Shown in pieces: positions 26,934-44,228 of a stretch of DNA of 64,000 bases (the first letter of the stretch is position 1; every line of letters begins with the position of its first letter). The notes beneath the pieces are model-generated. The model did no database searches, was not told the origin of the DNA, and worked only from the letters and a program-made list of their open reading frames with translations. Source of the DNA: an uncultured Pseudomonadota bacterium (GTDB lineage Bacteria; Pseudomonadota; Alphaproteobacteria; RF32; CAG-239); assembly GCA_902494875.1 (NCBI GenBank), contig CABUUO010000002.1:166671-230670 (forward strand), written 5' to 3'. Position numbers and translations under genes: made by a program.

Positions 26934-28338
26934 TCAGACGAAGAATTACGAAAATCTGAAAAAGGAGTGGCTGGACAGATATGCATCTGTGCCGGCCGCT
27001 TTGGCACAGATGAAAAATATCAAGGCGGCGGCAACGGCTTTCAATACCAATGTTGACGCGGTTTTGAAAATTTCGGGCCGGCAGCTCGGCCAACTGATTT
27101 CGCAGCAGCATCTGAGTCTGTCCGATATGCAGAATATCCGGGAAACCAAGCTAAATACGCCGGAAGACGTGGTTAAGGGCATTTTCAAGTGTTTCAGCAA
27201 GGGAATTGCCGAAGAATGGATTACCGAAGACAAGAAAGTTTATGACTGGATGGTCAAAAATCTGGGGTATGACCGTTTGCAAATGGGCGGGCAGGGCGGC
27301 ATTGTTGCCAATGTTCTGGCCGTGGCCGGCGTAAAAAAGGTTTATGCCCATGCTAACTCACTGCCAAAGTTGCAGTCTGACCAGTTTTTAAAGCTGGACA
27401 ATCTGTTGTCGTTTGACGAACACGGAAACGAAAAGCCGGCTTATCAGATTGACCGGCAGACGGACATTCCCCTGATTCACTGGATTATCGAGTTTGACAG
27501 AGAGGATGAGCTTTTGCTGGAAGGACAAGTCTTCAAATGTCCTAAATCCAACCGCTTTATTGCAACCTATGATCCTTTGAACCTGCATCTGGTGATGGAC
27601 GACAATTTTGTAAAGGCTTCGGTCGTCAATCCGCTGGATTATGTGATTTTATCCGGTTTTCATGCCTTAACGGAAAACAACGACGGCGTGGCTCTGGCCG
27701 AAAATGCGCTGCCGCTTATCAAAACCTGGAAGGAAAACGGGGCGATTGTTCATTTGGAAATTGCTTCCACGCAGGATTTGGCGGTAAGGAAGTCCATTAT
27801 TGAAAAAATTGCGCCGAAAGTGGATTCAATTGGCATAAACGAGCGTGAAACCATTGACATTCTGGAGGTTACCGGACAGGAAAAACTGGCCGAAGAATGC
27901 GAAAAAGACACGCACAGCGTTTGTTTGTTCCGGGCGCTTAACGAAATTAAGAAAACCATCAAAGCGCCGCGAATCCAGATGCATATGTTCGGCCTGTATA
28001 TTACTGTTCAGGACAAGGGCTTTAAGATTTCTCCCGAGGCTAATCTGCGCGGGATGATGACGGCGGCGACGGTTGCGGCCGGAAAAGCCGGCACCGGCAG
28101 CGTCAACGAGGCAAAAAATTTGCTTTGGGCACAGGGACAAACGGTTTCCGAGACCGGTCTCAAAGAACTTGAAGATTTGGCCGCATATATCGGAGACGAG
28201 GGTTTGGCCGAAAGCGGAATTGCATCTTATCAGGATTGGGACGTTATCGCCGTGCCGACGATTTTGGTTGAAAAACCGATAACTCTGGTGGGAATGGGGG
28301 ACACCATATCTTCTGTGTCGCTGCTGGCCGCAAGGTAA
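26926..28338 (+). CDS. ADP-dependent sugar kinase (ADP-dependent glucokinase/phosphofructokinase family, ribokinase superfamily).
   Basis: Family motifs present: FNTNVDAV (NxNxD); GGQGGIVANVL (archaeal ADP-GK has GGQAGIMAN); NRFIATYD; SIGINERE; MHMFGLYI; and the C-terminal catalytic GMGDTISS (GXGD). The start overlaps the previous gene (ATGAATAA). Confidence 0.7.
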   Translation: MNNQTKNYENLKKEWLDRYASVPAALAQMKNIKAAATAFNTNVDAVLKISGRQLGQLISQQHLSLSDMQNIRETKLNTPEDVVKGIFKCFSKGIAEEWITEDKKVYDWMVKNLGYDRLQMGGQGGIVANVLAVAGVKKVYAHANSLPKLQSDQFLKLDNLLSFDEHGNEKPAYQIDRQTDIPLIHWIIEFDREDELLLEGQVFKCPKSNRFIATYDPLNLHLVMDDNFVKASVVNPLDYVILSGFHALTENNDGVALAENALPLIKTWKENGAIVHLEIASTQDLAVRKSIIEKIAPKVDSIGINERETIDILEVTGQEKLAEECEKDTHSVCLFRALNEIKKTIKAPRIQMHMFGLYITVQDKGFKISPEANLRGMMTAATVAAGKAGTGSVNEAKNLLWAQGQTVSETGLKELEDLAAYIGDEGLAESGIASYQDWDVIAVPTILVEKPITLVGMGDTISSVSLLAAR

Positions 28339-28387: not shown

Positions 28388-29233
28388 TCAGATAATGTTA
28401 CAGGCGGTCTGTTCTTCCGGCGGCGGCGTGACTTTTATCTGACTGAGCTGGTTTTTGTTGCGGCGGACGATTTCAAACTCAAAGCAGTTGAAGATGAATT
28501 TCTGTCCCTGCTGCGGAATGGAGCGGGTGGCGTCCAACAGATAGCCGGCCAGAGTGACGGCGTTTTCGTCGTCAAGGTTCCAGCCCAGCTGGCGGTTGAG
28601 GTCTCGTAAGGGAACCTGGCCGTTGATGAGCCAGCTTTTGTCGTTGATTTTGCGGATGCCGAGAGAATTCAGGCTTTCAATGTCATATTCGTCATTAATA
28701 TCGCCGACGATTTCTTCAATAATGTCTTCCAGCGTGACAATTCCCTGCAGGTCGCCGTATTCGTCTACGACGATGGCAAAATGTTCCCGGCGGGCGCGGA
28801 AGAGCTGCAACTGGGTCAGCAGGCTGGTGTTGTCGGGAATAAACCAAGGTTTTGACATCAGCTCGGTGATTTTGATTTTTTTCAGATTTTCCTTGTTTTC
28901 ATAAGCTTCTTTGAGCAGGGTTTTGACCCGGATGATGCCGACGATGTTGTCCGGGTGGTTTTTATAAAGCGGAATGCGCGAAAAAGGACAGTCTTTGACC
29001 TTGTCGATGATTTTTTTGATTGGCAGGTCAACGTCGACCGAAAACAGATTTTTGCGGTGGTTCATAACGTCATAGACCTCAATTTTGGCGAGATCGAGGA
29101 CGCTTTCGAGCATTTCCTTTTCTTCTTCTATTTCTTCGCCCTGATATTGGGAGATGGCGCCGCGCAGCTCGGATAAGTCGTCAGAACTTTCCTTATTGCG
29201 GAAAAACAGCTTTTTTAAAGAAGAAAACACCAT
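28388..29233 (-). CDS. tlyC: CBS-pair plus CorC/HlyC domain protein (TlyC / CorC family, putative Mg/Co efflux-associated, hemolysin C-like).
   Basis: 281 aa. Tandem CBS domains followed by a C-terminal CorC_HlyC transporter-associated domain. Confidence 0.75.
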   Translation of the reverse strand: MVFSSLKKLFFRNKESSDDLSELRGAISQYQGEEIEEEKEMLESVLDLAKIEVYDVMNHRKNLFSVDVDLPIKKIIDKVKDCPFSRIPLYKNHPDNIVGIIRVKTLLKEAYENKENLKKIKITELMSKPWFIPDNTSLLTQLQLFRARREHFAIVVDEYGDLQGIVTLEDIIEEIVGDINDEYDIESLNSLGIRKINDKSWLINGQVPLRDLNRQLGWNLDDENAVTLAGYLLDATRSIPQQGQKFIFNCFEFEIVRRNKNQLSQIKVTPPPEEQTACNII

Positions 29234-33852: not shown

Positions 33853-36111
33853 CTATGCGCCGGTTCCGCCCAAGGTTTTGAGGAGGAAGGTCGCGCCGAA
33901 TTCAAAGTCGCCCTGATAGTCGGGGTCGTTGGAATTGTCTTTGCGAAGATACATGATTAATTTTAAGCATTCGTCTTCATAAATCAAGTTGCCGCCGTGT
34001 TCCAGCGAGCCGCCGTTGTCGGTCAGATCCTGACGGTTGAAAATGCTCAGGCTCCAGTCTTTGGTTAGTCTGGCGTTTAAGGCGGTGTAGAGTTCCTTGC
34101 GCCCGCTGCCGTTAATCAAGGAAGAATCTTTGTTGTCCTGCAGGTAAATGTAGGAAATGTAAGCATTCAGCAGCGAGGGGCCGATGGTGGTCGAAAGTTC
34201 GCTGTAAGACATTTCGAGCGAATCCTTGTCCATACGGAAACGGTAGTTCAGGTCAAAATATTCGCTGGGGTTGGCATAAATGCGACCGACGTAATCGCTG
34301 AAATAGCCGCTGCTGTCGGTTGACTGGGTGAAGCTTTCCTTCTTGTCAAAACGATAGCTCTGAGCCAAAAAGGCAGAGGTGCGGCCGGTAATGTCGCCGT
34401 AAGAACTCCAGTTGAAACCGTAGCTGATGCGGCTGCCGGTGTCGTTACGGTCATAGCCCGAATAGCGGTCGAGGTCTAAAATGTTGGTATCGTCCAATTC
34501 AACGTCCTGGCTGTCTTCGTTGGGGATTTTGTCAACCTTGTTGCCGCCGTTGGGCGCCGCTACCGCAACGATGGTCGGTTCCAAAATCTGGCGGGAGGTT
34601 TCGGTCGCGCGGATAAACGGCAGTTTCCATTCCAAACCCAACTGCGGGAAAACGCGGGCAACACCGCCGTCAAAGTTTTCGCCATCGGGGTTGGTATAGT
34701 TGTCAACATAATAAAGGTCGGATTTGACCGAAGCGACCATACGGTATTTTTCGCCGTAAGGACTGGTATAAGGCAGGTTCCAGGAATTAATCATGGTGAA
34801 ACGCTGCGAGTTAGCCTCTTCGTCGCGGAAAACCGAGGCAAAGTTGAGGTTGGTTTTGGAATAAGCGCCGTATTTGCCTGGTTCGCTGATGTTTTCATAA
34901 TTCAACATCGGCAAAACCAGCGGTTTGTCATATTCTTTCATATCATAGCTGTTCAGTTGATAATAATAGCCTTCAATCGACGCGTAGTTACGGTTGTCAA
35001 AGCCCTGCATTTTTAAGGATGAGGTCAGCCAGGCGTCATCCTGAAGCGAGAGCGACATGTCTTTCAGGTAGTTGCGATCCGAAGAATAATTGATATCGGC
35101 ATTGGCAACCCAAAAATCGTTGACTTCATAGCGGCCTTTCAGGAACAGGTTGCCGCGGCGGTTGTCATCGTCGTCTTGATCGACTAGCATGCTTCCTTCG
35201 GCATGAAGTTCGCCGCGATATGTATATTTGTTGTATTTTCCGCCCCAGACGATGCCTTTGTCGGTAGAAAAGGTCGGGGAGAAAAGAACGTCTTCATGAT
35301 CGGAAACCGCCCAGAAGTATTGCGGCTGAATGGCGGCGCCCAAATATGAACTGCTGGCAATGCTCGGCGGCAGAAAACCGGAACGGCGCTTGACCGAGGG
35401 ATCCGGATGCGAAAGAAACGGCGTGTAGAAAACCGGAATGCCTTTTATTTCCAAAAAAGCGTCATTATAGTAGACATCCTGTTTTTCGGCATTGTGGCGG
35501 ACTTTGCGCGCCTTCAGCTGCCAGAGGGGATCTTTGCCGGAACAGACGTCGCAAGGAGAGTAAACTGCGTTTTCCATGACTTTGTTGTCATTTTCCAGAC
35601 GACGTACCTTGCGGGCGGCAATTTGGCTTTTGTCTTTCATGATGACTTTAATGTTGTCCATTTCGCCGGCTTTCATTTTGTCGGTGAGGACTACATAGTC
35701 CGAGAAAACAACGCTGCCGTCTTTTTCGACCAGAACCACGTTGCCGACGGCGGTGATGACGTCTTCTTTCTGGTTATAAACAACTTTGTCAGCTTTGACC
35801 GTCAGATTGTCGCGGATGATGTTGACGTTGCCGATGGCCGTGATGGTGCTCAGCTTTTGGTCGTTTTGCATTTCGTCGGCGCTGAAGTAAATGTCTTGTT
35901 CTTCGGTTTCGGCGGCCGGTGCGGCGATGTCCATGACGCTGGTGAGATTTTGCGCGGGGCTGAGTTCGGCGTAAGGCGTGCGCTCTTTTTTGTGCAGGAT
36001 GGCTCCGGCATCAGCGTTGTTAACGGCAACTTCGGCGGCGGCCGTTGTTGTCCAAAGACTCAAAATTGCCGCTGTCAGACACAAAAGACGGGAAGAAAAA
36101 GGTTTATGCAT
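33853..36111 (-). CDS. lptD: LPS-assembly outer-membrane protein LptD (OstA).
   Basis: 752 aa. Signal peptide. N-terminal OstA domain and a large beta-barrel. Located between lptG and surA. Confidence 0.85.
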   Translation of the reverse strand: MHKPFSSRLLCLTAAILSLWTTTAAAEVAVNNADAGAILHKKERTPYAELSPAQNLTSVMDIAAPAAETEEQDIYFSADEMQNDQKLSTITAIGNVNIIRDNLTVKADKVVYNQKEDVITAVGNVVLVEKDGSVVFSDYVVLTDKMKAGEMDNIKVIMKDKSQIAARKVRRLENDNKVMENAVYSPCDVCSGKDPLWQLKARKVRHNAEKQDVYYNDAFLEIKGIPVFYTPFLSHPDPSVKRRSGFLPPSIASSSYLGAAIQPQYFWAVSDHEDVLFSPTFSTDKGIVWGGKYNKYTYRGELHAEGSMLVDQDDDDNRRGNLFLKGRYEVNDFWVANADINYSSDRNYLKDMSLSLQDDAWLTSSLKMQGFDNRNYASIEGYYYQLNSYDMKEYDKPLVLPMLNYENISEPGKYGAYSKTNLNFASVFRDEEANSQRFTMINSWNLPYTSPYGEKYRMVASVKSDLYYVDNYTNPDGENFDGGVARVFPQLGLEWKLPFIRATETSRQILEPTIVAVAAPNGGNKVDKIPNEDSQDVELDDTNILDLDRYSGYDRNDTGSRISYGFNWSSYGDITGRTSAFLAQSYRFDKKESFTQSTDSSGYFSDYVGRIYANPSEYFDLNYRFRMDKDSLEMSYSELSTTIGPSLLNAYISYIYLQDNKDSSLINGSGRKELYTALNARLTKDWSLSIFNRQDLTDNGGSLEHGGNLIYEDECLKLIMYLRKDNSNDPDYQGDFEFGATFLLKTLGGTGA

Positions 36112-37237
36112 TATCCGTCCTTTCTTCCCGGTATGTTTTTTTGCTGCGAAAAGCGCTGGGGTTGTAATAGCGCAGCAGATAAATGCAGACGCTCAGCGGA
36201 ACGACCAGATTAGCGTACATCAGCGGCAGCAGCGAAATGTGTTTGGCGGCTATGTTGGTTATAGAGAGATCCATTGCCTGAATGATAACCATAAACGCGA
36301 TTGATATTGAAATAATCTTAGCCTGTCCGCGGCGGTTGAAGTTGCCTACCAGCAGCCCGGTGCAGGCCAGCAGGGCAAACAGAACATTGTAAAAAGGGTT
36401 AACCAGACGGCGGTTGCCTTCAACGATGTAACGTCTGGCTTCTTTGGGGTCCAGCTCGGGATTGCTGCCGGCGGCAAGAAGTTCGGTCAGGGGTTTCTGG
36501 CGGACGCCGGCTTCTTTTTTGCGGGCCGTTTCCTTGACGCCGAAATCAACCGAATAGCGTTCAAACGATACGGAGCTGAATTGTCCGGTTTTGGTATTGA
36601 TTTCCTGGCGTGCGCCGTTGACCATGATTATTTTCGGGGTGTTGCCGGTATAGACGACGCGTCCTTTTTCGGCTGAAAGGGTTACGCGCGACTGCGGGTT
36701 GCGTTCGTCATTGACCAAAATCCCGGAAATTGAGCCGTCTTTTTCGTGAGTGGTGATAAACACGGTCAGGCCGTTTTGTACGGAAGTAAATTCGCCTTCG
36801 CGGAACATCAGGTGCGAAACGTCGTTTTTGACTTTCCACTGCAAATCGTCAAATTTTCTTTCTGACCAGGGAATGCCGTAGTTGAAGACAAAAGAACAGA
36901 ATAGACACATGACAAGGCCGAAGATTACGGCAGGAACAGCGCATTGCCAGGGGCTGATGCCGGCGGATTTCATCACGACCAATTCACGGTCGGAAAGCAT
37001 GCGGTTGTATACAAACAGTACGGCGGCAAACAAAGATATCGGCGCCAGAATAGTAAAAATGCGCGGCATTAAAAGCGAGGTCATGGATACAAAGGTGGTG
37101 AACGGAATGCCGTTGTTGGTGATGAGGTCGACAAAACGCAGCGACTGAGTCAGCCAAATGATGGACATCAGCGAGAAGGTGACCAGCAGAAAACCGATGA
37201 AAATTTGCTTTAGTATATATCTGTTTAGTTTTTTCAT
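36104..37237 (-). CDS. lptG: LPS export ABC permease of the LptF/LptG (YjgP/YjgQ) family, probably LptG.
   Basis: About 377 aa. Six predicted TM segments with a large periplasmic loop. Adjacent to and overlapping lptD. Confidence 0.7.
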   Translation of the reverse strand: MKKLNRYILKQIFIGFLLVTFSLMSIIWLTQSLRFVDLITNNGIPFTTFVSMTSLLMPRIFTILAPISLFAAVLFVYNRMLSDRELVVMKSAGISPWQCAVPAVIFGLVMCLFCSFVFNYGIPWSERKFDDLQWKVKNDVSHLMFREGEFTSVQNGLTVFITTHEKDGSISGILVNDERNPQSRVTLSAEKGRVVYTGNTPKIIMVNGARQEINTKTGQFSSVSFERYSVDFGVKETARKKEAGVRQKPLTELLAAGSNPELDPKEARRYIVEGNRRLVNPFYNVLFALLACTGLLVGNFNRRGQAKIISISIAFMVIIQAMDLSITNIAAKHISLLPLMYANLVVPLSVCIYLLRYYNPSAFRSKKTYREERTDNA

Positions 37238-37513
37238 GCGGGTGATTATAACCAAAATATCTTATAAAAAAACTAATATTTTTAAAATATGCGATTTTTT
37301 TCCAAAAAAAACGAGTCCGGGCAACGGTTTGCGGCCAATCTGCCCCAAAAAGATTCACTTTGAGGCGTAAAAGCCGATTTTACTGAACTAAAAGGAAAAA
37401 CTTCTTGAATAAGGATTTATTTACGAATAGCATCATAACATAAACCATAAACAACAACAGATGCCGGAATACGGTATTTGGAGACCGGCGTCTAAAACAA
37501 GAAAGGTAGGACT

Positions 37514-37996
37514 ATGACTGAAGAAGTTTCCCTGGCTTCCCAAGTCGCTAGCAAATGGCGCAAAAAACGCGGGTCATTGATTATGGCTCTGCACGAAATT
37601 CAAGATGTCAAAGGTTATGTTCCCTGGGAAGACGCGGTTGACATTGCCAACGGCATGAACGTTCCTCTGGCACGGATTTATGAGGTTTTGACTTTTTACA
37701 ATTTTTTCAAGCTTGACGCTCCCGGCAAAGCGGTTATTTCGGTTTGTACCGGAACGGCCTGTTATTTGAAAGGCAATGACAAGGTTCTGGAAGAATTTAA
37801 GAAACAACTCGGCATCAATGAAGGCGAAAGCACTTCAGACCGGATGTTCCATTTGCAGGTGGTGCGCTGCGTCGGCTGCTGCGGTCTGGCTCCGGTCTGC
37901 GTTGTCAACGGCAAGACTTACGGCCGAATCACTCCCGCGGATGTAAGCAAAATCCTTGAAGAGTGGAAAAACAAACTTGACGAAGACAAGGAGTAG
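37514..37996 (+). CDS. hydC: [FeFe]-hydrogenase gamma subunit HydC (NuoE / 24-kDa-subunit-like thioredoxin-fold 2Fe-2S protein).
   Basis: 160 aa. Cys ligands CTGTAC...CVGCCGLAPV are typical of NuoE/HndA. Confidence 0.8.
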   Translation: MTEEVSLASQVASKWRKKRGSLIMALHEIQDVKGYVPWEDAVDIANGMNVPLARIYEVLTFYNFFKLDAPGKAVISVCTGTACYLKGNDKVLEEFKKQLGINEGESTSDRMFHLQVVRCVGCCGLAPVCVVNGKTYGRITPADVSKILEEWKNKLDEDKE

Positions 37997-38000
37997 AACC

Positions 38001-39689
38001 ATGGCCGAAATTGACAAGAGATTTGACATTCATGAAATAGCCGCTGCCAAAAAACAGGATTTGGAGCGGTTTGTTTGTAATATTTACTGCTGCCACTCAA
38101 CGGGGTGCAAGTCTTCGGGCAGCGACGACATTATCGATCTGATTAAAGAAGCCATTGAAGAGCATGACCTTGAAGACAGAGTGCGAATCGTGGCGACCGG
38201 CTGTATGGGCCTTTGCGCGCAGGGGCCGCTGGTGCGGGTTGAGATTAAAGGCCAGAAAGACGTTTTGTATAAAAGGCTGGAACCGCTGGTTGCACGGCTG
38301 ATTGTTACTGAGCATATCGTTCCGGCGCTTAAGCTGGAAAAAGGCGAGGAATTTCAGGTTCCCGAATTTTTGCAGAAATACGTTTTGTCTTTGGAGCTGC
38401 CGTTTTTCACCAAGCAGGAAAAGGTGGTTTTGAAGGACGCCGGCAACCTTGATCCGGAAGATATTCAGGAATATATTGCCCACGGCGGATATCTGGCTTT
38501 GGAAAAAGTTTTGAAAACCATGAAACCTGCGGACGTGGTTGCGGAAATCAAAAAGTCCGGTTTGCGCGGACGCGGCGGCGGCGGTTTTTCTACCGGCATG
38601 AAATGGGAGATTGCCTCCAGAACGCCGACGGTTGACGAAAAGTTTATTATCTGCAACGGCGACGAGGGCGATCCCGGCGCCTATATGGACCGCAGCATTC
38701 TGGAAGGAAATCCGCACGCAGTGATTGAAGGCATGATGATTGCGGCCTATGCCATCGGCGCAACGGAAGGATGGTTTTATGTCCGCGCCGAATATCCGCT
38801 GGCCGTCGAGCGTCTGGAAAAAGCGATTAAGGCCTGCAAGAAGACCAGACTGCTCGGCAACAACATCATGGGCACGGATTTTTCTTTTAACATAGACGTT
38901 CGCCTCGGCGCCGGCGCTTTTGTCTGCGGCGAGGAAACCGCTTTAATCCGCTCAATTGAAGGCAACCGAGGCACACCGCGTCCGCGTCCGCCGTATCCGA
39001 CTGACAGGGGGTTGTGGAACAAACCTTCCTGCGTAAACAACGTCGAAACGCTGGCCAACGTGGCGAGCATTATTCTTAAAGGCGCCGACTGGTTTGCTTC
39101 TTTCGGTACCGAAACGTCCAAAGGAACCAAGGTTTTTGCCCTGACCGGACAGGTTGAGCATTCGGGACTGATTGAAGTGCCGATGGGAATTACCATTAAC
39201 GAAATCGTCAATGAAATCGGCGGCGGTGTTCCGAACGGTAAAAAACTGAAAGCGGTGCAAACCGGCGGCCCTTCCGGCGGCGTTATTCCCGCGGACAAGC
39301 TGGATTTGCCGGTTTGTTACGAGGAACTCAAAAAAGTCGGTTCCATTATGGGGTCCGGCGGTATGATCGTGATGGACGACAGTTCCAACATGGTCGACAT
39401 TGCTAATTTTTATCTTGATTTTACGGTTGACGAATCCTGCGGAAAATGCGCGCCGTGCCGTATCGGCGGCAAGCAGATGCTGCTTTTGCTTGAGAAAATA
39501 AACAAAGGCAAGGGTACCAAACAGGATATTGCCGATTTGAAGCGGATTGCAACCGCAATGCAAAAGGCTTCTCTGTGCGGATTGGGGCAGACTGCTCCGA
39601 ATCCGGTTCTTTCAACGCTGCGCTTCTTTGAAGACGAGTATCTGGCCAAAGTCGGCGAAACTAAAGAAAACAGAGCGGGGGAGAAATAA
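38001..39689 (+). CDS. hydB: [FeFe]-hydrogenase beta subunit HydB (NuoF / 51-kDa-subunit-like NAD(H)-binding flavoprotein with extra N-terminal 2Fe-2S and C-terminal 4Fe-4S domains).
   Basis: N-terminal CHSTGC...TGCMGLC. FMN/NADH site RGRGGGGFSTGMKW and the GDEGDPGA motif. C-terminal CGKCAPCR. The start at 38001 is preceded by GGAG. Confidence 0.85.
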   Translation: MAEIDKRFDIHEIAAAKKQDLERFVCNIYCCHSTGCKSSGSDDIIDLIKEAIEEHDLEDRVRIVATGCMGLCAQGPLVRVEIKGQKDVLYKRLEPLVARLIVTEHIVPALKLEKGEEFQVPEFLQKYVLSLELPFFTKQEKVVLKDAGNLDPEDIQEYIAHGGYLALEKVLKTMKPADVVAEIKKSGLRGRGGGGFSTGMKWEIASRTPTVDEKFIICNGDEGDPGAYMDRSILEGNPHAVIEGMMIAAYAIGATEGWFYVRAEYPLAVERLEKAIKACKKTRLLGNNIMGTDFSFNIDVRLGAGAFVCGEETALIRSIEGNRGTPRPRPPYPTDRGLWNKPSCVNNVETLANVASIILKGADWFASFGTETSKGTKVFALTGQVEHSGLIEVPMGITINEIVNEIGGGVPNGKKLKAVQTGGPSGGVIPADKLDLPVCYEELKKVGSIMGSGGMIVMDDSSNMVDIANFYLDFTVDESCGKCAPCRIGGKQMLLLLEKINKGKGTKQDIADLKRIATAMQKASLCGLGQTAPNPVLSTLRFFEDEYLAKVGETKENRAGEK

Positions 39690-39690
39690 G

Positions 39691-41460
39691 ATGGTAAATT
39701 TGAAAATAGATAATTTTGACGTTGATGTTCCGGCCGGCACCTCTATTTTAGATGCGGCGAGAACGGTGCAGATTGACATTCCGACCCTGTGCAAACATCC
39801 CGACGTCGATCCGTCCGCCGGCTGCGGCATTTGCATCGTCAAGGTTAACGGAAGGATTATGCGTTCCTGTTGTACGCCGGTAGCCGAAGGAATGCAGGTT
39901 ATTACTTCCGATCCGGAAATTGTGAGTGTGCGGCGGACGGTTCTGGAATTGATTTTAAGCAATCACCCGAACGAATGCCTGAACTGTATTCGTTCCGGTC
40001 ACTGCGAGTTGCAGGATCTGACCAATACTTTCGGTATTCGCAGTTCCAATCTGCTGAGCCTGAATAAAAAATATGAGATTGACGATTCAACGCATTCGAT
40101 TGTTTTGGATCCGTCCAAGTGCATAGTCTGCGGCCGCTGCGTGGAAGTCTGCCAAAATCAGCAGAACGTATGGGCTTTGAGTTATCTTAACCGCGGTCTG
40201 GCCACTAAAATTACGGCAGCCGGCGGCATTAAGCTGGCGGACAGCCCCTGTATCAAATGCGGACAATGTTCGGCGCATTGTCCGACCGGTGCGATTGTCG
40301 AATATGACGAGACGCAGAAGGTTTGGGATATGCTGGCAGATCCGGAGCTGGTGACGATCGTGCAGATTGCGCCGGCGGTACGCGTAGCCATCGGCGAAGA
40401 GTTCGGCTATGATTTTGGCGAGAATCTGACCGGAAAAACCTATGCGGCGCTGCGTCGTCTCGGTTTTAACAAAATTTTTGATACAAACTTCGGTGCGGAC
40501 TTGACGATTATTGAGGAAGCGACGGAGTTTGTCCGTCGCTTTACCAAGGAACCGGAATCGCTGCCGATGTTTACGTCTTGCTGTCCGGCCTGGGTGGATA
40601 TGCTAGAAAAATATCATCAGGATATGATTCCTAATTTTTCGACCTGCAAATCGCCGCAATCGATGGTGGGGGCAATGGCCAAGACCTATTATGCCGAGAA
40701 AAATGCCATTGATCCGGCTAAAATCCGCGTGATTTCGGTAATGCCGTGCACGGCCAAAAAATGGGAAATTGTCCGTAGCGAAGATATGCGTTCTTCCGGT
40801 TTTCAGGATGTTGACGTATCGATCACGACCCGAGAACTGGCAAGGATGATTAAACAGGCCGGCATCAATTTCCGTGCTCTGCCGGAGGAAAAGGCGGATA
40901 ATCCGCTGGGCGAATATTCCGGTGCGGCAACGATTTTCGGTACAACCGGCGGCGTTATGACCGCGGCGCTCAGAACCGCTTATTTCTATATTACCGGCGA
41001 AGAACTTGAAAATATTGACTTTAAGGAAATCGACGGTTTGGAAGGCGTCAAAGAGGCCGAGGTCGACATTAAGGGGATCAAGGTCAGGATAGCCGTTGCC
41101 CATGGTGCCGGCAATGTCGAAACCGTGTTGAACCGTATTCGCGAAGCCAAGGCCAACGGCGAAGAGCTGCCATATCACTTTGTAGAGGTTATGGCCTGCC
41201 GCGGCGGTTGTGTTTCCGGCGGCGGTCAGCCGCGGGTTATGATGCCGGGACAGCCTAAACCGCGCGGGATTACCGACGACATTCGCAAGAAACGGGCACA
41301 GGGTCTGCTGAATGAAGATTTGCAGGCTAAAAACCGTCGTTCGCATCATAACGAATCGATAAAAACGCTGTATAAGGAATATCTGGGTGAGCCCAACGGG
41401 GAAAAATCGCATCATTTGCTGCATACGCATTATGAACCCCGCCGCAAATATTCCAAATAA
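39691..41460 (+). CDS. hydA: [FeFe]-hydrogenase catalytic subunit HydA (M3-type: N-terminal 2Fe-2S domain, His-ligated 4Fe-4S, two ferredoxin-like 4Fe-4S sites, then the H-cluster domain).
   Basis: H-cluster signature motifs L1 TSCCPAW, L2 MPCTAKK and L3 EVMACRGGCVSGGGQP are all present. N-terminal CKHPDVDPSAGCGICIV, CIVCGRCVEVC and CIKCGQCSAHCP. The start ATG at 39691 follows the hydB stop by 1 nt. Confidence 0.9.
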   Translation: MVNLKIDNFDVDVPAGTSILDAARTVQIDIPTLCKHPDVDPSAGCGICIVKVNGRIMRSCCTPVAEGMQVITSDPEIVSVRRTVLELILSNHPNECLNCIRSGHCELQDLTNTFGIRSSNLLSLNKKYEIDDSTHSIVLDPSKCIVCGRCVEVCQNQQNVWALSYLNRGLATKITAAGGIKLADSPCIKCGQCSAHCPTGAIVEYDETQKVWDMLADPELVTIVQIAPAVRVAIGEEFGYDFGENLTGKTYAALRRLGFNKIFDTNFGADLTIIEEATEFVRRFTKEPESLPMFTSCCPAWVDMLEKYHQDMIPNFSTCKSPQSMVGAMAKTYYAEKNAIDPAKIRVISVMPCTAKKWEIVRSEDMRSSGFQDVDVSITTRELARMIKQAGINFRALPEEKADNPLGEYSGAATIFGTTGGVMTAALRTAYFYITGEELENIDFKEIDGLEGVKEAEVDIKGIKVRIAVAHGAGNVETVLNRIREAKANGEELPYHFVEVMACRGGCVSGGGQPRVMMPGQPKPRGITDDIRKKRAQGLLNEDLQAKNRRSHHNESIKTLYKEYLGEPNGEKSHHLLHTHYEPRRKYSK

Positions 41461-41482
41461 CGTTTTGTTGCGGAAATAAAAA

Positions 41483-41521
41483 AGACACGCCGGGGACAGA
41501 TGTCCGAGGCGTGTTTTTTTT
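41483..41521. terminator. Bidirectional intrinsic terminator after hydA (AGACACGCC ... GGCGTGT followed by T8). The same hairpin also serves the convergent minus-strand gene.
   Basis: Stem with an internal sub-hairpin GGACAGATGTCC. A T-run follows on the plus strand and an A-run precedes it (a T-run on the minus strand). Confidence 0.65.
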
Positions 41522-41535
41522 GAAGAGCAGCCGCG

Positions 41536-42642
41536 TTATAAAATAATATGCGGAACAAAGTTGCTCATATTATGGGTTATGCGGGAAGCGGTTTCCCTGA
41601 TTCCCATGCCACAGGGGGCACCGCCGATAATCCAGCTGCCCAAGACGGGATAACGGCATTGAAACGAAGGAATATCCACCAGTTCCTGATAAACGTGGCC
41701 TTCTTTACCGTATTCTCCTCCGGTGCTTTCCAGAACCAGTCCGTTGCGAATCAGTTCAATATTGGCACCTTCGCGGGAGAACACCGGTTTCTTACAATAA
41801 GACTTCAAGTGTCCTGGTTCGCTGTAAGCCGGCAGAATATAAGGACTGTCCGGAAACATTTCATATAAAACAGACAGCATGGCCTTGTTGGACATGAGGG
41901 ATTTCCAGAGCGGCTCAATCCAGCACATCGGCGTCATACATCCTTCCGGGTCTTCTTCAAACATCGTTTCCCAGGGATAAAGTTTGAACATACAGTCAAT
42001 AGGAATATCTTCCTGCAGATAGAGGGCGTTGCCAAAGTGTTCGACATTGCGGATATCCGTTTCGCTGACCGAAAGTCCGGCCTCGACGGCGGTGGAGATA
42101 ATATAAGCCAAAGTAGCGTTATCTTCCAGACAATCCGAAATTGAGGCAAATACATAGTTTTCGCATTTATATACCTGATGAATGTCTTTCCACGACTGAA
42201 CCAATGCCTCATGAAGATAATTAAACTGGTCTGCCTGCGGAAACAGGTCCTGTTTCCACTGCCATTGGATGACGGCGGCTTCTATCAGCGAGGTCGGTGT
42301 GTCGGCATTGAATTCCAGAAGTTTGGGAATGCCGTTGACAAAAGCAAAATCAAAGCGGCCGTATAAAGACAAGTCGTCGTCTTCCCAGCTTTGGCGGATG
42401 CTGTTTCTGAGAAGCGGCGGAATGTGCAGGCGGTCAAGTTTTTTGTCATCGTAAAGGCAGGTCTCTACGGCATCGCAGTACATTTGGTAACATTCGCGGC
42501 TGGCTTTTTCTATTTCGGCGATTTCTTCGGCCGAAAAAATATAATAAGCGTTTTCAAGCCAATATTCCTGATGAAAACCGAAACCTAAGTTCTCGACGGT
42601 CTTTTCGTAACCGGGGCGAGGCGTAATCATGTTTCTTTCCAT
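41536..42642 (-). CDS. Glutathionylspermidine synthase-like ATP-grasp family protein (GspS C-terminal-domain homologue; YgiC/YjfC-like). The longer ORF reaches 42873.
   Basis: Likely start is MERNMITPRPGYEK. The sequence resembles the GSP-synthetase pre-ATP-grasp/ATP-grasp family (LIEAAVIQWQW..., C-terminal ...GSWIIGG). Confidence 0.55.
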   Translation of the reverse strand: MERNMITPRPGYEKTVENLGFGFHQEYWLENAYYIFSAEEIAEIEKASRECYQMYCDAVETCLYDDKKLDRLHIPPLLRNSIRQSWEDDDLSLYGRFDFAFVNGIPKLLEFNADTPTSLIEAAVIQWQWKQDLFPQADQFNYLHEALVQSWKDIHQVYKCENYVFASISDCLEDNATLAYIISTAVEAGLSVSETDIRNVEHFGNALYLQEDIPIDCMFKLYPWETMFEEDPEGCMTPMCWIEPLWKSLMSNKAMLSVLYEMFPDSPYILPAYSEPGHLKSYCKKPVFSREGANIELIRNGLVLESTGGEYGKEGHVYQELVDIPSFQCRYPVLGSWIIGGAPCGMGIRETASRITHNMSNFVPHIIL

Positions 42643-42646
42643 AATG

Positions 42647-43045
42647 TTACGCGCCGAAAGAACGAGACGGGCTGACACTTTTTCCGAAAGAGCGGCTCGC
42701 CGGTTTAGAACTGCTGTTGTAAGATCTCGTCGATGAGGATGAATTCGGTTTGACCGAAGCCGGACGATAGGTTGATTCACTGATACCGGTCGGCGGATTG
42801 ACTTTTGTGCCGCTGCCGTTGGTCCAAGAATTGCTGCCCGGATAGTAGTAGTAAGACGGAGAACCGCCGCCATGAGGCATCAACGCCCATCTCATCAGAG
42901 CTGCGTTGTAAATCCAAGAGTTTCCCTGAGAATCAACGTGTTTTTCCTTATCTTTGGGATTTTGGGGCAGAGTGTCTTTCTGCGTGCAGGAAATGAAAAA
43001 AGATAAACTTAATCCTGCAATTAACAAAAATTTTAATTTCTTCAT
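42647..43045 (-). CDS. Small secreted protein / probable lipoprotein, rich in Ser/Tyr/Pro/Gly.
   Basis: N-terminal MKKLKFLLIAGLSLSFFISC: a signal peptide with a lipobox-like Cys. Low-complexity mature part. Confidence 0.4.
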   Translation of the reverse strand: MKKLKFLLIAGLSLSFFISCTQKDTLPQNPKDKEKHVDSQGNSWIYNAALMRWALMPHGGGSPSYYYYPGSNSWTNGSGTKVNPPTGISESTYRPASVKPNSSSSTRSYNSSSKPASRSFGKSVSPSRSFGA

Positions 43046-43727: not shown

Positions 43728-44228
43728 ATGAAGAAAGTATTTTGGGCTTTGGTTGCTTTAATATTTTTGCCTGCTTTTGTATCCGGTGATATGATTCAGT
43801 TAATGGATGCGCTTAAAAAGGATGAAAAACCGCGGATTGAAGAATTAATAAACAGCAAAAATATTGATTTAAATAGCGGTTTTGAAAATCTTTTGGTGGT
43901 TTATCTCTATGCGAAAGAAAAAAATGCTGAGCTTGAATTTGTCCGTTATCTGCTAGACAAAGGAGTTAATCCGGATTATGCGCCGGGGATTCCGGCAATA
44001 GACATTGCTATTATGCAAGGACGGAGCGACATTGTTTCTTTGTTGATTGAAAAAGGTGCGGATGTTAATATAATTGAAAAACGCAAGGGTTTTTCACCGT
44101 TGGGAATGGCTTTGCTTGTCAGGGATTGCAAGGTGGCGGATATGTTGAAAAAAGCCGGTGCTGTTTTAGATAAAGACAGCCGCAAAGATGTCTTGTTCAT
44201 CAGGGAGCGGGAGTGTTTTGGCGGATAA
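43728..44228 (+). CDS. Secreted ankyrin-repeat protein.
   Basis: Signal peptide MKKVFWALVALIFLPAFVSG. Ankyrin-like repeat units (e.g. ...GVNPDYAPGIPAIDIAIMQGRSDIVSLLIEKGADVN...) spanning about three repeats. Confidence 0.7.
   Translation: MKKVFWALVALIFLPAFVSGDMIQLMDALKKDEKPRIEELINSKNIDLNSGFENLLVVYLYAKEKNAELEFVRYLLDKGVNPDYAPGIPAIDIAIMQGRSDIVSLLIEKGADVNIIEKRKGFSPLGMALLVRDCKVADMLKKAGAVLDKDSRKDVLFIRERECFGG

What the first reader, a model, noticed from the sequence alone, without database searches (positions are those of the whole stretch)
37256..41521. Complete trimeric (NuoE/NuoF/HydA-type) [FeFe]-hydrogenase operon in an endosymbiont-like alphaproteobacterial backbone
Three translationally coupled genes are present. 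The first is a NuoE-like 2Fe-2S subunit (37514..37996). The second is a NuoF-like flavoprotein carrying the NADH/FMN motif RGRGGGGFSTGMKW plus extra Fe-S domains (38001..39689). The third is an M3-type HydA with all three H-cluster motifs (TSCCPAW, MPCTAKK, EVMACRGGCVSGGGQP) and the full ferredoxin-like N-terminal array (39691..41460). This is the subunit architecture of NAD(H)/ferredoxin-dependent electron-bifurcating hydrogenases. It is also the combination seen in hydrogenosomes (HydA plus 24/51-kDa subunits). The operon sits divergently from lptG in a genome segment that otherwise looks like an obligate intracellular alphaproteobacterium (ankyrin-repeat protein, tlyC, Pmp-like autotransporter, heavy gene overlaps). 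H2-evolving anaerobic metabolism in such a lineage is unusual, and it bears on hydrogen-hypothesis-type scenarios for mitochondrial/hydrogenosomal origins. No hydE/hydF/hydG maturase genes are in this window. No FNR/Rrf2-type operator is recognisable in the 258-bp divergent promoter region.
Basis: partly seen in the sequence, partly recalled or inferred. Interest (0 to 1): 0.8.

Follow-up and report, generated by a model that had tools for sequence, protein, structure and literature searches.

The report
Gut alphaproteobacterial NADH-linked [FeFe]-hydrogenase operon
The three hydrogenase genes are real and intact, but they belong to a common gut-dwelling alphaproteobacterial lineage in which this operon is universal and was described in 2016; the one unusual point is that the NADH-binding subunit has lost the built-in ferredoxin-like domain thought to be needed for electron bifurcation.

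Summary
hydC (37514-37996), hydB (38001-39689) and hydA (39691-41460) are intact and tightly spaced, with every expected domain and H-cluster motif.

- The backbone is not endosymbiont-like. It belongs to a gut/rumen lineage of uncultured Alphaproteobacteria ("Azospirillum sp. CAG", "Proteobacteria CAG:495", Ca. Scatocola type).
- hydCBA is conserved in this lineage in at least 80 species-level genomes. It usually sits next to lptG-lptD, has host-like GC and codon usage, and is assembled identically in 9 independent contigs.
- The cluster, its maturases and its possible link to hydrogenosomes were published in 2016 (PMC4967309).
- HydB and HydC belong to the HydABC/Bfu clade of anaerobes. They are not the complex-I-type NuoE/F found in hydrogenosomes.

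One real nuance emerged. Throughout the lineage HydB keeps all residue signatures of bifurcating enzymes and the N-terminal [2Fe-2S] cluster. It has lost the Zn hinge and the C-terminal 2x[4Fe-4S] domain (B3/B4) found in all characterised bifurcating HydABC. So it either confurcates using soluble ferredoxin, as recently reported for cyanobacterial Hox, or it works with NADH only.

No maturases are in the window, but HydF is encoded near hydCBA in related species.

The parts
37404..37429 (+). Conserved 26-nt cis element CTTGAATAAG-N6-TTTACGAATA, 85-110 nt upstream of the hydC ATG. It is a candidate operon-specific promoter or operator.
   Evidence: It is the only match in the 64-kb window at up to 3 mismatches, against 0.01 expected by chance. 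It occurs once per locus in 17 related loci, always just upstream of hydC. The factor that binds it is unknown.
37256..37513 (.). 258-bp divergent lptG / hydC intergenic region. A Shine-Dalgarno-like AAAGGTAGG sits just upstream of the hydC ATG.
   Evidence: Sequence. The consensus sigma-70 scan found nothing in this spacer. No convincing Rex, FNR or Fur site was found. The equivalent spacer is 136-303 bp in 43 loci where lptG and hydC are adjacent.
37514..37996 (+). hydC: HydC/NuoE-like thioredoxin-like [2Fe-2S] subunit (cluster C1; Cys78, 83, 119, 123), 160 aa.
   Evidence: PF01257 at 161 bits. The best solved relative is T. kivui HydC 8a6t_C at 143 bits, against 95 bits or less for mitochondrial 24-kDa subunits.
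38001..39689 (+). hydB: NADH/FMN flavoprotein subunit, 562 aa. It has an N-terminal [2Fe-2S] domain (Cys26-72), the FMN/NADH site with bifurcating-type signatures (PGAYMDR, GAGAFVCGE, GGPSG) and the [4Fe-4S] cluster B1 (Cys480, 483, 486, 526). It lacks the Zn hinge and the C-terminal 2x[4Fe-4S] (B3/B4) domain.
   Evidence: Pfam domains. It aligns to residues 6-528 of 597 in 7t2r_B, 8-531 of 599 in 7q4v_B and 19-563 of 630 in 8a6t_B. There are no Cys after the FxxEY motif in 76 lineage homologues. The hinge ligands are replaced by V428, N463 and K550. Pfam finds Fer4 in the positive control P0246 but not in this protein.
39691..41460 (+). hydA: M3-type [FeFe]-hydrogenase catalytic subunit, 589 aa. 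It has a [2Fe-2S] cluster, a His-ligated [4Fe-4S] cluster, 2x[4Fe-4S], the H-domain with motifs L1-L3, and the small-subunit-like C-terminus.
   Evidence: Pfam. NCBIfam NF040763 'NADH-dependent [FeFe] hydrogenase, group A6' scores 797 bits against a cutoff of 765. The best solved relatives are the bifurcating HydA of T. kivui (595 bits) and A. woodii (589 bits), against 473 bits for CpI. L1, L2 and L3 are conserved in 80 lineage sequences.

Best explanation
**Identity (about 0.9 confidence).** This is a native, vertically inherited hydCBA operon of a gut-dwelling, fermentative alphaproteobacterium. It encodes a heterotrimeric NAD(H)-linked [FeFe]-hydrogenase of the HydABC/Bfu clade.

**Core mechanism (inferred from homology).** NADH donates a hydride to FMN in HydB. 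Electrons pass through the HydB [4Fe-4S] cluster B1 into the HydA accessory Fe-S chain and on to the H-cluster, where protons are reduced to H2.

**Ferredoxin coupling (about 0.45-0.5 confidence, inferred).** I consider the most likely mechanism to be confurcation of NADH and reduced ferredoxin at the FMN/B1/C1 site. In this lineage the tethered ferredoxin-like domain of HydB (clusters B3/B4) and its Zn hinge have been lost. A soluble ferredoxin, reduced for example by pyruvate:ferredoxin oxidoreductase, would then have to dock directly near the HydC C1 and HydB N-terminal [2Fe-2S] clusters. This has recently been reported for cyanobacterial HoxEFUYH, whose HoxF has the same domain make-up.

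**Physiological role.** The enzyme would dispose of glycolytic NADH plus reduced ferredoxin as H2 in the gut.

**Maturation.** HydE/F/G encoded elsewhere in the genome would mature the enzyme.

The confidence value of 0.48 refers to the full statement, including ferredoxin coupling.
For: **Identity and integrity:**

**Native to the host, not chimeric**
- GC and GC3 z-scores are below 1.1. RSCU correlation to the rest of the window is 0.87-0.88 for hydB and hydA, against a median of 0.74.
- hydCBA is contiguous in every locus with enough flank, and lptG-lptD sits close upstream, directly adjacent in 43 loci.
- Hyd proteins are 71-99 % identical across the lineage, while LptG is 54-78 %.
- An identical HydA in the same context is found on 9 independent contigs, one of 433,833 bp.

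**Gut lineage:** record titles; taxonomy.

**Bfu-clade membership of HydB and HydC:**

**Evidence for retained ferredoxin coupling**
- The three residue signatures that separate bifurcating from non-bifurcating beta subunits (PMC7311640) are of the bifurcating type. Two are invariant in all 76 lineage HydBs and the third, GGPSG, was found by regex in 72 of 76.
- The HydC cluster and the HydB N-terminal [2Fe-2S] cluster, which non-bifurcating homologues lack (PMC9304861), have all their Cys present in the window proteins.
- Cyanobacterial HoxF lacks the C-terminal domain, keeps the same three motifs and the N-terminal [2Fe-2S] cluster, and confurcates with soluble ferredoxin (bioRxiv 10.64898/2026.06.25.734504).
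- The related CAG genomes encode PFO and small ferredoxins (PMC4967309). A 79-aa 2x[4Fe-4S] ferredoxin lies on the related contig L087.
- From established thermodynamics (E0' of NADH about -320 mV against -414 mV for H2), H2 production from NADH alone needs very low H2 pressure. That condition is not typical of gut contents.

**Maturation**
- HydF (TIGR03918, 511 bits) lies 1.3 kb from hydA in L034.
- HydF and hydCBA lie about 25 kb apart on one JGI contig of a species whose HydA is 84 % identical.
Against: - The B3/B4 C-terminal domain is present in every biochemically characterised bifurcating HydABC/Bfu enzyme and absent from characterised non-bifurcating ones (PMC9499530; PMC9304861).
- The experimentally observed low-potential path is C1 to B3/B4 to Fd (PMC12018979).
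- Deleting the HydB C-terminus in T. kivui left only 'low electron bifurcation activity' (PMC10021017).
- The lineage has also lost the Zn-hinge ligands.
- Related genomes carry a second, presumably ferredoxin-dependent 'type A' [FeFe]-hydrogenase that could handle reduced ferredoxin on its own (PMC4967309).
- The Hox precedent is a preprint and concerns a [NiFe] enzyme.
- No biochemical data exist for any member of this lineage.
- No maturase, PFOR or ferredoxin gene lies in this window, and the rest of this genome could not be searched.
Confidence: 0.48

Rival explanations
1. This is a non-bifurcating, strictly NADH-dependent [FeFe]-hydrogenase. In this reading, losing the Zn hinge and the B3/B4 ferredoxin-like domain turned an ancestral bifurcating HydABC into a simple NADH:H+ oxidoreductase, functionally like S. 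wolfei Hyd1ABC. Reduced ferredoxin would be handled by a separate hydrogenase.
For: - The C-terminal domain and hinge are absent throughout the lineage.
- All characterised bifurcating enzymes have this domain and the non-bifurcating ones lack it.
- The T. kivui C-terminal deletion variant has low bifurcation activity.
- NCBIfam names the HydA family 'NADH-dependent [FeFe] hydrogenase, group A6'.
- A second 'type A' hydrogenase is reported in related genomes.
Against: - The bifurcating-type residues at the NADH/FMN/SLBB sites are conserved across the 76 lineage HydBs (two motifs invariant, GGPSG found in 72 of 76), whereas known non-bifurcating enzymes carry T/S, K/S/A, Y and no GGPSG.
- The N-terminal [2Fe-2S] cluster, which characterised non-bifurcating beta subunits lack, is retained.
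- HydB nests inside the bifurcating clade and does not group with the T/K/Y-type sequences.
- H2 evolution from NADH alone is thermodynamically unfavourable at gut H2 levels (established knowledge).
- The Hox precedent shows coupling without the C-terminal domain.
Confidence: 0.35
2. The enzyme works mainly in the uptake direction, with H2 reducing NAD+ with or without ferredoxin. It would let the bacterium scavenge gut H2, rather than serving as a fermentative H2-evolving sink.
For: HydABC enzymes are reversible, and acetogens use them for H2 oxidation (PMC10021017). H2 is abundant in gut habitats (general knowledge). Hox oxidises H2 with NAD+ alone at lower rates.
Against: The window shows no H2-dependent respiratory or CO2-fixation context. 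It encodes fermentative sugar-handling genes (ADP-dependent sugar kinase, glycogen synthase). Related genomes encode PFO, which points to H2 evolution. Direction cannot be read from sequence.
Confidence: 0.08
3. One reading: an anomalous hydrogenase operon in an obligate intracellular, endosymbiont-like alphaproteobacterium. It would be either a rare relic relevant to the hydrogen hypothesis or a recent horizontal acquisition or assembly chimera.
For: An ankyrin-repeat protein (43728-44228), a Pmp-repeat autotransporter (19255-22692), a CorC/TlyC-like protein (28388-29233) and some overlapping genes are present. Degli Esposti et al. argued for an alphaproteobacterial ancestry of eukaryotic [FeFe]-hydrogenases using relatives of this lineage.
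Against: - All 80 related genomes are gut, rumen or faecal MAGs.
- GC is about 47.5 %.
- The operon is universal and syntenic in the lineage.
- Codon usage and GC match the host.
- The identical arrangement is assembled in 9 independent contigs.
- HydB and HydC are Bfu-type, not complex-I-type.
- Eukaryotic hydrogenases are considered polyphyletic lateral acquisitions, and hydrogenosomal NuoF groups with complex I (PMC13556243).
Confidence: 0.04

Closest known systems
Electron-bifurcating [FeFe]-hydrogenase HydABC of Thermoanaerobacter kivui / Acetobacterium woodii (PDB 8a6t, 7q4v) and Thermotoga maritima (7p5h)
   Same: - It has the same three subunits, though the gene order here is hydC-hydB-hydA.
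- These are the best solved-structure matches for HydA and HydC (595 and 143 bits); for HydB, the related A. mobile NiFe-HydB 7t2r_B scores slightly higher (667 bits) than A. woodii HydB (659 bits).
- The M3 HydA has no extra C-terminal [2Fe-2S] domain, as in A. woodii and T. kivui.
- HydB has the N-terminal [2Fe-2S] cluster, FMN, the B1 cluster and all three bifurcating signature motifs.
   Different: - HydB ends about 65-70 residues early and lacks the 2x[4Fe-4S] ferredoxin-like domain (B3/B4).
- The Zn-hinge ligands are missing: the conserved Cys/His are replaced by V428, N463 and K550, and there is no CPAGxC.
- It is effectively a natural counterpart of the T. kivui HydB deletion P565-G630, which had low bifurcation activity.
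Cyanobacterial bidirectional [NiFe]-hydrogenase HoxEFUYH (HoxE/HoxF diaphorase module)
   Same: [quoted passage not shown] It is reported to confurcate NADH plus soluble ferredoxin. This is the same HydB-type architecture as in the window.
   Different: The catalytic module is [NiFe] (HoxUYH), not an [FeFe] HydA. The ferredoxin partner is a plant-type [2Fe-2S] protein. HoxF is a more distant homologue of the window HydB than the Firmicute and Synergistete HydBs. The evidence is a 2026 preprint.
[quoted passage not shown]
   Same: They have a multimeric NuoE/NuoF-like plus HydA organisation, and the B3/B4 ferredoxin-like domain is absent.
   Different: Those beta subunits carry T/S232, K/S/A234, Y367 and no GGPSG. 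They lack the extra clusters B2-B5 and form a separate clade. The window HydB has A, M, F and GGPSG, keeps the N-terminal cluster, and nests in the bifurcating clade.
hymABC-like NuoE/NuoF/M3-HydA cluster of gut metagenomic alphaproteobacteria (Azospirillum sp. CAG:239, Acetobacter sp. CAG:977; Degli Esposti et al. 2016, PMC4967309)
   Same: This is the same kind of organism and the same three-gene cluster. That paper also reported HydE/F/G, PFO and small ferredoxins elsewhere in those genomes, and made the hydrogenosome/mitochondrion argument. Record titles among the 80 loci include uncultured Azospirillum sp., Azospirillum sp. 51_20 and Proteobacteria bacterium CAG:495.
   Different: - The window is a different species. 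Its closest public genome is MAG BRZ_KF__bin25, with HydA 99 % identical.
- The 2016 paper noted the N-terminal [2Fe-2S] cluster of HymB. The passages I read did not mention the missing C-terminal domain, the lptG synteny or the conserved upstream element.
- I could not link the CAG:239 accession numbers to my hits directly.
Hydrogenosomal HydA with 24-kDa/51-kDa (NuoE/NuoF) subunits (Trichomonas; anaerobic fungus Caecomyces churrovis)
   Same: The functional logic is similar: an [FeFe]-hydrogenase coupled to an NADH-oxidising NuoE/NuoF-type flavoprotein module.
   Different: Hydrogenosomal NuoE/F derive from mitochondrial complex I and lack the N-terminal [2Fe-2S] domain. The fungal complex was shown to be non-bifurcating (PMC13556243). 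The window HydB scores about twice as high against Bfu HydB as against complex-I NuoF/NDUFV1.

Membership tests
[FeFe]-hydrogenase group A, M3-type catalytic subunit (HydA) | H-cluster binding motifs L1 (TSCCPxW), L2 (MPCxxKxxE) and L3 (ExMxCxxGCxxGGG) are intact | tested here: met
   TSCCPAW, MPCTAKKWE and EVMACRGGCVSGGG are present in the window and conserved in 80 lineage sequences.
[FeFe]-hydrogenase group A, M3-type catalytic subunit (HydA) | Fe_hyd_lg_C plus small-subunit-like domain, and an N-terminal F-cluster array ([2Fe-2S], His-ligated [4Fe-4S], 2x[4Fe-4S]) | tested here: met
   Pfam PF02906 at 318 bits, PF02256 at 78 bits, plus PF13510, PF10588 and Fer4 x2. NCBIfam NF040763 scores 797 bits against a cutoff of 765.
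[FeFe]-hydrogenase group A, M3-type catalytic subunit (HydA) | Maturases HydE, HydF and HydG are encoded in the same genome | tested here: inconclusive
   None is in the 64-kb window. HydF is found beside or near hydCBA in related species. HydE/F/G are reported in related CAG genomes (PMC4967309). The rest of this genome could not be searched.
Electron-bifurcating HydABC / Bfu family | HydB and HydC (BfuB/BfuC) homologues are encoded with HydA and group with bifurcating enzymes | tested here: met
   All three subunits match bifurcating-type complexes best (HydA and HydC: T. kivui 8a6t; HydB: A. mobile 7t2r_B, then A. woodii 7q4v_B). In the NJ tree HydB sits inside a clade whose members mostly carry the C-terminal domain and the bifurcating signature.
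Electron-bifurcating HydABC / Bfu family | Bifurcating-type residues at the NADH/FMN/SLBB sites (A/E232, M234, F367, GGPSG; Losey et al. 2020) | tested here: met
   DEGDPGAYMDR and GAGAFVCGE are found in 76 of 76 lineage HydBs and GGPSG in 72 of 76 by regex. The criteria are from PMC7311640.
Electron-bifurcating HydABC / Bfu family | HydC [2Fe-2S] cluster (C1), HydB [4Fe-4S] cluster (B1) and HydB N-terminal [2Fe-2S] cluster | tested here: met
   HydC has Cys78, 83, 119 and 123. HydB has Cys480, 483, 486 and 526 and the N-terminal Cys26-72. Pfam finds PF01257 at the HydB N-terminus.
Electron-bifurcating HydABC / Bfu family | C-terminal ferredoxin-like domain of HydB with two [4Fe-4S] clusters (B3/B4), described as invariant in true Bfu enzymes | tested here: not met
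   - The alignment stops at residue 528-531 of 597-599 in 7t2r_B and 7q4v_B.
- The window HydB has no Fer4 Pfam hit, while the control P0246 has one.
- No Cys is found in the 11-30-aa tail of 76 lineage HydBs, and the gap to hydA is 18 nt or less.
- The definition comes from PMC9304861 and PMC9499530.
Electron-bifurcating HydABC / Bfu family | Zn-binding hinge (3 Cys + 1 His) connecting the core to the C-terminal domain | tested here: not met
   Columns that hold Cys or His in 18-24 of 24 CTD-bearing bifurcating-type representatives are V428, N463, K550 and absent (CPAGxC) in the window. Assigning these columns to the Zn site is my inference from the descriptions.
Electron-bifurcating HydABC / Bfu family | Tightly coupled NADH- plus ferredoxin-dependent H2 turnover | not testable with these tools
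   This requires enzyme assays.
Non-bifurcating NADH-dependent multimeric [FeFe]-hydrogenase (S. wolfei Hyd1ABC type) | Beta subunit with T/S232, K/S/A234, Y367 and no GGPSG, lying in a clade separate from bifurcating beta subunits | tested here: not met
   The window has A, M, F and GGPSG. T/K/Y-type representatives fall outside the window's clade.
Non-bifurcating NADH-dependent multimeric [FeFe]-hydrogenase (S. wolfei Hyd1ABC type) | Beta subunit lacks the additional clusters B2-B5 | tested here: inconclusive
   B3/B4 and the hinge site are absent, but the N-terminal [2Fe-2S] cluster is present.
Hydrogenosome-type HydA + complex-I-derived NuoE/NuoF | The NuoF/NuoE partners are orthologous to mitochondrial/alphaproteobacterial complex I 51-kDa/24-kDa subunits and have no N-terminal [2Fe-2S] domain | tested here: not met
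   HydB scores 589-667 bits against Bfu HydB and 270-350 bits against NuoF/NDUFV1, including Paracoccus 8qby_F at 300 bits. The N-terminal PF01257 domain is present. HydC scores 143 bits against T. kivui HydC and 95 bits or less against NDUFV2.
Obligate intracellular (Rickettsiales-like) alphaproteobacterial endosymbiont | The closest relatives are intracellular symbionts, and the genome is strongly AT-rich and reduced | tested here: not met
   The 80 closest loci are from human, chicken, deer, yak, sheep, rabbit and buffalo gut or rumen MAGs. Ca. Scatocola is placed in Rhodospirillaceae incertae sedis. Window GC is 0.475 +/- 0.035 per gene. Lifestyle itself cannot be proven from sequence.

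The most novel reading that the evidence does not exclude
The gut-alphaproteobacterial HydABC may be a natural 'minimal' bifurcating [FeFe]-hydrogenase. It would have discarded the tethered B3/B4 ferredoxin-like domain and the Zn hinge, yet still confurcate NADH and reduced soluble ferredoxin at the FMN/B1/C1 flavobicluster. That would be an [FeFe] counterpart of what was just reported for cyanobacterial Hox. If so, the domain regarded as invariant and essential in the Bfu family would be dispensable. The residue signatures, rather than the domain count, would then be the true predictor of bifurcation, and many gut H2 budgets assigned from domain architecture would need re-annotation.
Probability: 0.42. 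Interest if true: 0.55.

Novelty: new member of a known kind. Interest (0 to 1): 0.3.

Why it matters
The headline claim, an anomalous hydrogenase in an endosymbiont-like alphaproteobacterium that bears on mitochondrial origins, does not hold. The organism is a gut commensal type, the operon is a lineage-wide core feature, and the point was published in 2016.

Two things remain useful.
- **Ecology.** This confirms that a widespread and still uncultured gut alphaproteobacterial lineage carries a highly conserved NADH-linked [FeFe]-hydrogenase, and so contributes to gut H2 cycling.
- **Mechanism.** The lineage is a natural experiment for the unresolved HydABC/Bfu bifurcation mechanism. Its HydB has every residue signature of bifurcating enzymes but lacks the B3/B4 domain and Zn hinge that current models treat as the ferredoxin branch. 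Assaying this one enzyme would show whether the tethered ferredoxin domain is essential, and whether sequence motifs or domain content should be used to annotate bifurcating hydrogenases in metagenomes.

Tried and rejected
1. **Recent HGT or a chimeric contig.** Rejected. GC, GC3 and RSCU are host-like, and the tetranucleotide profile is unremarkable. Synteny with lptG-lptD is conserved across species. The arrangement is identical in 9 independent assemblies.
2. **A hidden or frameshifted C-terminal Fer4 domain in hydB.** Rejected. The gap to hydA is 1 nt. The upstream extension of the hydA ORF (39547-39690) has no ferredoxin motif. The absence holds across the lineage.
3. **Known operators.** A Rex scan gave only 2 weak hits in other loci, and an FNR scan at 3 mismatches was non-specific (134 hits). 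A Fur scan gave 0 hits. The consensus sigma-70 scan found nothing in the spacer.
4. **Maturases.** None is in the window. HydE and HydG were not found within +/-10 kb of hydCBA in any of the 80 loci. The radical-SAM candidates were RlmN and HemW.
5. **A free-standing ferredoxin gene in the window.** None was found.
6. **tRNA and Rfam scans of the window.** Nothing was found.
7. **Linking my hits to the CAG:239 accessions of the 2016 paper via cluster members.** No such accessions were returned.
8. **Technical missteps.**
   - A first regex-based classification of HydB representatives was too brittle and was replaced by an alignment-based one.
   - A first motif search used the wrong spacer length and found nothing; it was corrected.
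9. **Structure prediction and fold search.** Not used, because the sequence-level matches were unambiguous.

Full report
**Observation**

They are separated by 4 and 1 nt. Pfam assigns them as follows.
- The first protein is a thioredoxin-like [2Fe-2S] protein (PF01257, 161 bits).
- The second has Complex1_51K, SLBB, NADH_4Fe-4S and a partial N-terminal PF01257 domain.
- The third has Fer2_4, NADH-G_4Fe-4S_3, two Fer4 motifs, Fe_hyd_lg_C (318 bits) and Fe_hyd_SSU.

All quoted motifs are present and uninterrupted. NCBIfam places HydA in NF040763, 'NADH-dependent [FeFe] hydrogenase, group A6', above its curated cutoff (797 against 765 bits). lptG (36104-37255) and lptD (33853-36111) lie divergently upstream. 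A glutathionylspermidine-synthase-family gene lies convergently downstream.

**Organism**

The window is not endosymbiont-like.
- Per-gene GC averages 0.475.
- The window encodes ordinary housekeeping and envelope functions:
  - DNA and chromosome maintenance: ParAB, XerC/D-type recombinase, FtsK, AddAB
  - RNA and translation-related functions: GidAB, MnmE, Rho, KsgA, TsaD, RNase PH
  - protein folding and export: SurA, SecB, GrpE, HslU-like
  - envelope and outer membrane: LptDG, MltA, a Pmp-repeat autotransporter
  - lipid and carbohydrate metabolism: FabD/FabG, glycogen synthase, an ADP-dependent sugar kinase
  - other: a Tim44-like protein
- A scan of one genome per GTDB species with HydA returned 530 confirmed stretches. 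The best 80 (71-99 % identity) are all MAGs from gut, rumen or faeces of humans, chickens, deer, yak, sheep, buffalo, rabbit and mouse. They are labelled uncultured Alphaproteobacteria, Azospirillum sp., Azospirillaceae, Rhodospirillales, 'Proteobacteria bacterium CAG:495' or Candidatus Scatocola.
- NCBI places Candidatus Scatocola in Rhodospirillaceae incertae sedis.
- From my own knowledge this corresponds to the GTDB order RF32, but I did not verify that label.

**Is the operon native?**

- tblastn of the window proteins against the 80 loci shows hydC-hydB-hydA contiguous in every locus with enough flank. In most loci lptG-lptD lies close upstream; in 43 loci lptG and hydC are directly adjacent across a 136-303-bp spacer.
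- The Hyd proteins (71-99 % identity) are better conserved than LptG (54-78 %) or LptD (51-82 %). This indicates strong purifying selection.
- GC and GC3 of the three genes lie within about 1.1 sd of the other 44 genes. RSCU correlation to the rest of the window is 0.87-0.88 for hydB and hydA, among the highest in the window.
- The exact HydA protein, with the same neighbours, is found on 9 independently assembled contigs from different samples, including a 433,833-bp ENA scaffold.

Recent HGT and chimerism are therefore rejected.

**Prior knowledge**

Degli Esposti et al. 2016 (PMC4967309) reported that gut metagenomic alphaproteobacteria (Azospirillum sp. CAG:239, Acetobacter sp. CAG:977) carry an M3 [FeFe]-hydrogenase gene next to NuoE- and NuoF-like genes. 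They compared this cluster to clostridial hymABC. They reported HydE/F/G, PFO and small ferredoxins elsewhere in those genomes, and they argued for an alphaproteobacterial ancestry of eukaryotic hydrogenases.

The analogy to hydrogenosomal HydA plus 24/51-kDa subunits is functional, not orthologous.
- The window HydB scores 589-667 bits against the HydB of T. kivui, A. woodii and A. mobile. It scores 270-350 bits against complex-I NuoF/NDUFV1, including Paracoccus.
- HydC behaves the same way.
- A 2026 study shows that fungal hydrogenosomal NuoF groups with mitochondrial complex I, apart from prokaryotic HydB (PMC13556243).

**The mechanistic nuance**

The window HydB aligns to the bifurcating HydBs only up to residue 528-531 of 597-599 (A. 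mobile, A. woodii) and residue 563 of 630 (T. kivui). [quoted passage not shown]

This is not an assembly artefact.
- In 76 lineage HydBs the tail after the FxxEY motif is 11-30 residues with no cysteine, and the distance from the hydB stop to the hydA start is 18 nt or less.
- Pfam finds the Fer4 domain in a positive control (P0246) but not in the window protein or its nearest cluster representative.
- Conserved Cys/His columns of 24 CTD-bearing bifurcating-type representatives are replaced in the window by V428, N463 and K550, and the CPAGxC motif is missing. These columns are a Cys at window position 463, a His at 550, the CPAGxC motif and, less strictly, a Cys at 428. I interpret them as the Zn-hinge ligands described for T. 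maritima, A. woodii and T. kivui. If so, the hinge and the B3/B4 module were lost together.

At the same time, other features of bifurcating enzymes are kept.
- The three residue signatures proposed to distinguish bifurcating from non-bifurcating beta subunits are all of the bifurcating type: A232/M234, F367 and GGPSG (PMC7311640). The first two are invariant in all 76 lineage HydBs, and GGPSG was found by regex in 72 of 76.
- The N-terminal [2Fe-2S] cluster of HydB and the HydC cluster have all their Cys present in the window proteins.

An exhaustive HMMER search of 1.84 billion cluster representatives puts this in context.
- Among the 150 nearest 50 %-identity clusters, 34 combine the bifurcating signature with a C-terminal domain.
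- Only the window's own cluster (P0241, 65 % identity, 565 aa) and one other full-length cluster (P0247) have the signature without the domain.
- The other CTD-less clusters carry T/K/Y-type residues, as in NuoF, FdsB or non-bifurcating enzymes.
- In a neighbour-joining tree of the core region, the window, P0241 and P0247 form a small clade nested among CTD-bearing bifurcating-type sequences. This suggests a secondary loss. The tree is a rough distance tree without support values.

**What the loss means**

Current models treat B3/B4 as the ferredoxin branch.
- Bfu enzymes are defined by an invariant BfuBC core with five BfuB clusters (PMC9304861).
- The only experimentally observed ferredoxin position is next to B3/B4, with the path C1 to B3/B4 to Fd (PMC12018979).
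- A T. kivui HydB C-terminal deletion (P565-G630) showed low bifurcation activity (PMC10021017).

On the other side, a June 2026 preprint reports that cyanobacterial HoxEFUYH confurcates NADH and soluble ferredoxin. Its HoxF lacks the C-terminal domain but keeps the N-terminal [2Fe-2S] cluster and the same three motifs.

I therefore commit to the following.
- The enzyme is an NAD(H)-linked trimeric [FeFe]-hydrogenase (about 0.9).
- It most likely still couples reduced soluble ferredoxin with NADH, by direct docking near C1 and the N-terminal HydB cluster (about 0.45-0.5).
- The main rival is that it has become NADH-only (about 0.35).

Conservation of the motifs and of the low-potential-side clusters favours coupling, as do the gut H2 thermodynamics. 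The structural and mutational literature favours the rival.

**Maturases**

- None is in the window.
- In a related species (L034, HydA 82 % identical), a bona fide HydF (TIGR03918, 511 bits against a cutoff of 326) lies 1.3 kb downstream of hydA.
- In another species (HydA 84 % identical), HydF and hydCBA sit about 25 kb apart on the same 189-kb JGI contig. That contig also encodes a 79-aa 2x[4Fe-4S] ferredoxin.
- HydE and HydG were not seen within +/-10 kb of the operon in any locus.
- The rest of this organism's genome could not be searched.
- Lineage-level evidence therefore supports a functional maturation system. For this particular genome it remains inferred.

**Regulation**

No FNR, Rex or Fur site and no consensus sigma-70 promoter was found in the 258-bp spacer. 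A 26-nt element, CTTGAATAAG-N6-TTTACGAATA (37404-37429), is unique in the 64-kb window, with 0.01 matches expected by chance. It recurs once per locus in 17 related loci, always upstream of hydC. It is a candidate operon-specific promoter or operator. The factor that binds it is unknown.

**Verdict**

The 'endosymbiont' and 'unusual' framing is wrong, and the 'bifurcating' label fails one defining feature. The residual interest is that this abundant gut lineage offers a natural CTD-less, bifurcating-signature HydABC on which competing models of Bfu-type bifurcation could be tested.

Noticed in passing
window 26926-28338 (+): This gene belongs to the ADP-dependent phosphofructokinase/glucokinase family (Pfam PF04587, 236 bits). 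It scores well below the NCBIfam equivalog cutoffs (about 200 bits against 387-554). That makes it a divergent ADP-dependent sugar kinase of archaeal/eukaryotic type in an alphaproteobacterium, translationally linked to two upstream genes (24521-26933).
   Followed up: no
window 37404-37429 (+); L001-L025 and L060 upstream of hydC: The 26-nt element CTTGAATAAG-N6-TTTACGAATA is unique in the window. It is conserved once per locus upstream of hydC in 17 related species. It matches none of the Rex, FNR or Fur consensus sequences, and the regulator or sigma factor is unknown.
   Followed up: partly
L001-L080: Across the lineage the hydrogenase subunits (HydA 71-99 %, HydB 65-100 %) are markedly better conserved than the adjacent essential envelope proteins LptG (54-78 %, 100 % only for the partial L001 match) and LptD (51-82 %).
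   Followed up: partly
P0247 (656 aa): This is a second CTD-less HydB-like cluster with the bifurcating signature. It also lacks the N-terminal [2Fe-2S] cysteines and instead carries about 150 extra N-terminal residues with no Pfam match. Its organism and partner subunits are unknown.
   Followed up: no
L042 (JAISVX010000001.1, 391,563-bp contig): This contig carries the same alphaproteobacterial-type hydCBA (HydA 79 % identical), yet it is deposited as 'Lactobacillaceae bacterium' MAG Mx356_bin52. This is probably a taxonomic mislabel of the bin.
   Followed up: no
window 41536-42873 (-) and 42647-43045 (-): The mechanical ORF for the glutathionylspermidine-synthase-family gene is 445 aa, but public gene calls give 364-368 aa. 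The upstream overlapping ORF (132 aa) begins with a lipoprotein-like signal (MKKLKFLLIAGLSLSFFISC) and is Ser/Pro/Asn-rich with no Pfam match. In some strains of the same species it is called as only 77 aa.
   Followed up: no
They are a 1145-aa autotransporter with a weak Chlamydia-PMP repeat hit, a Tim44-like protein and a secreted-looking ankyrin-repeat protein. The ankyrin gene has the most atypical codon usage in the window (RSCU r = 0.455).
   Followed up: no
L087 / L088 (related species): In this related species HydF is flanked by a Na+/H+ exchanger, TrmB, PntAB transhydrogenase, HslUV, HemW and a 79-aa 2x[4Fe-4S] ferredoxin. PntAB and the small ferredoxin are relevant to the NADH/ferredoxin balance of this lineage.
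   Followed up: no
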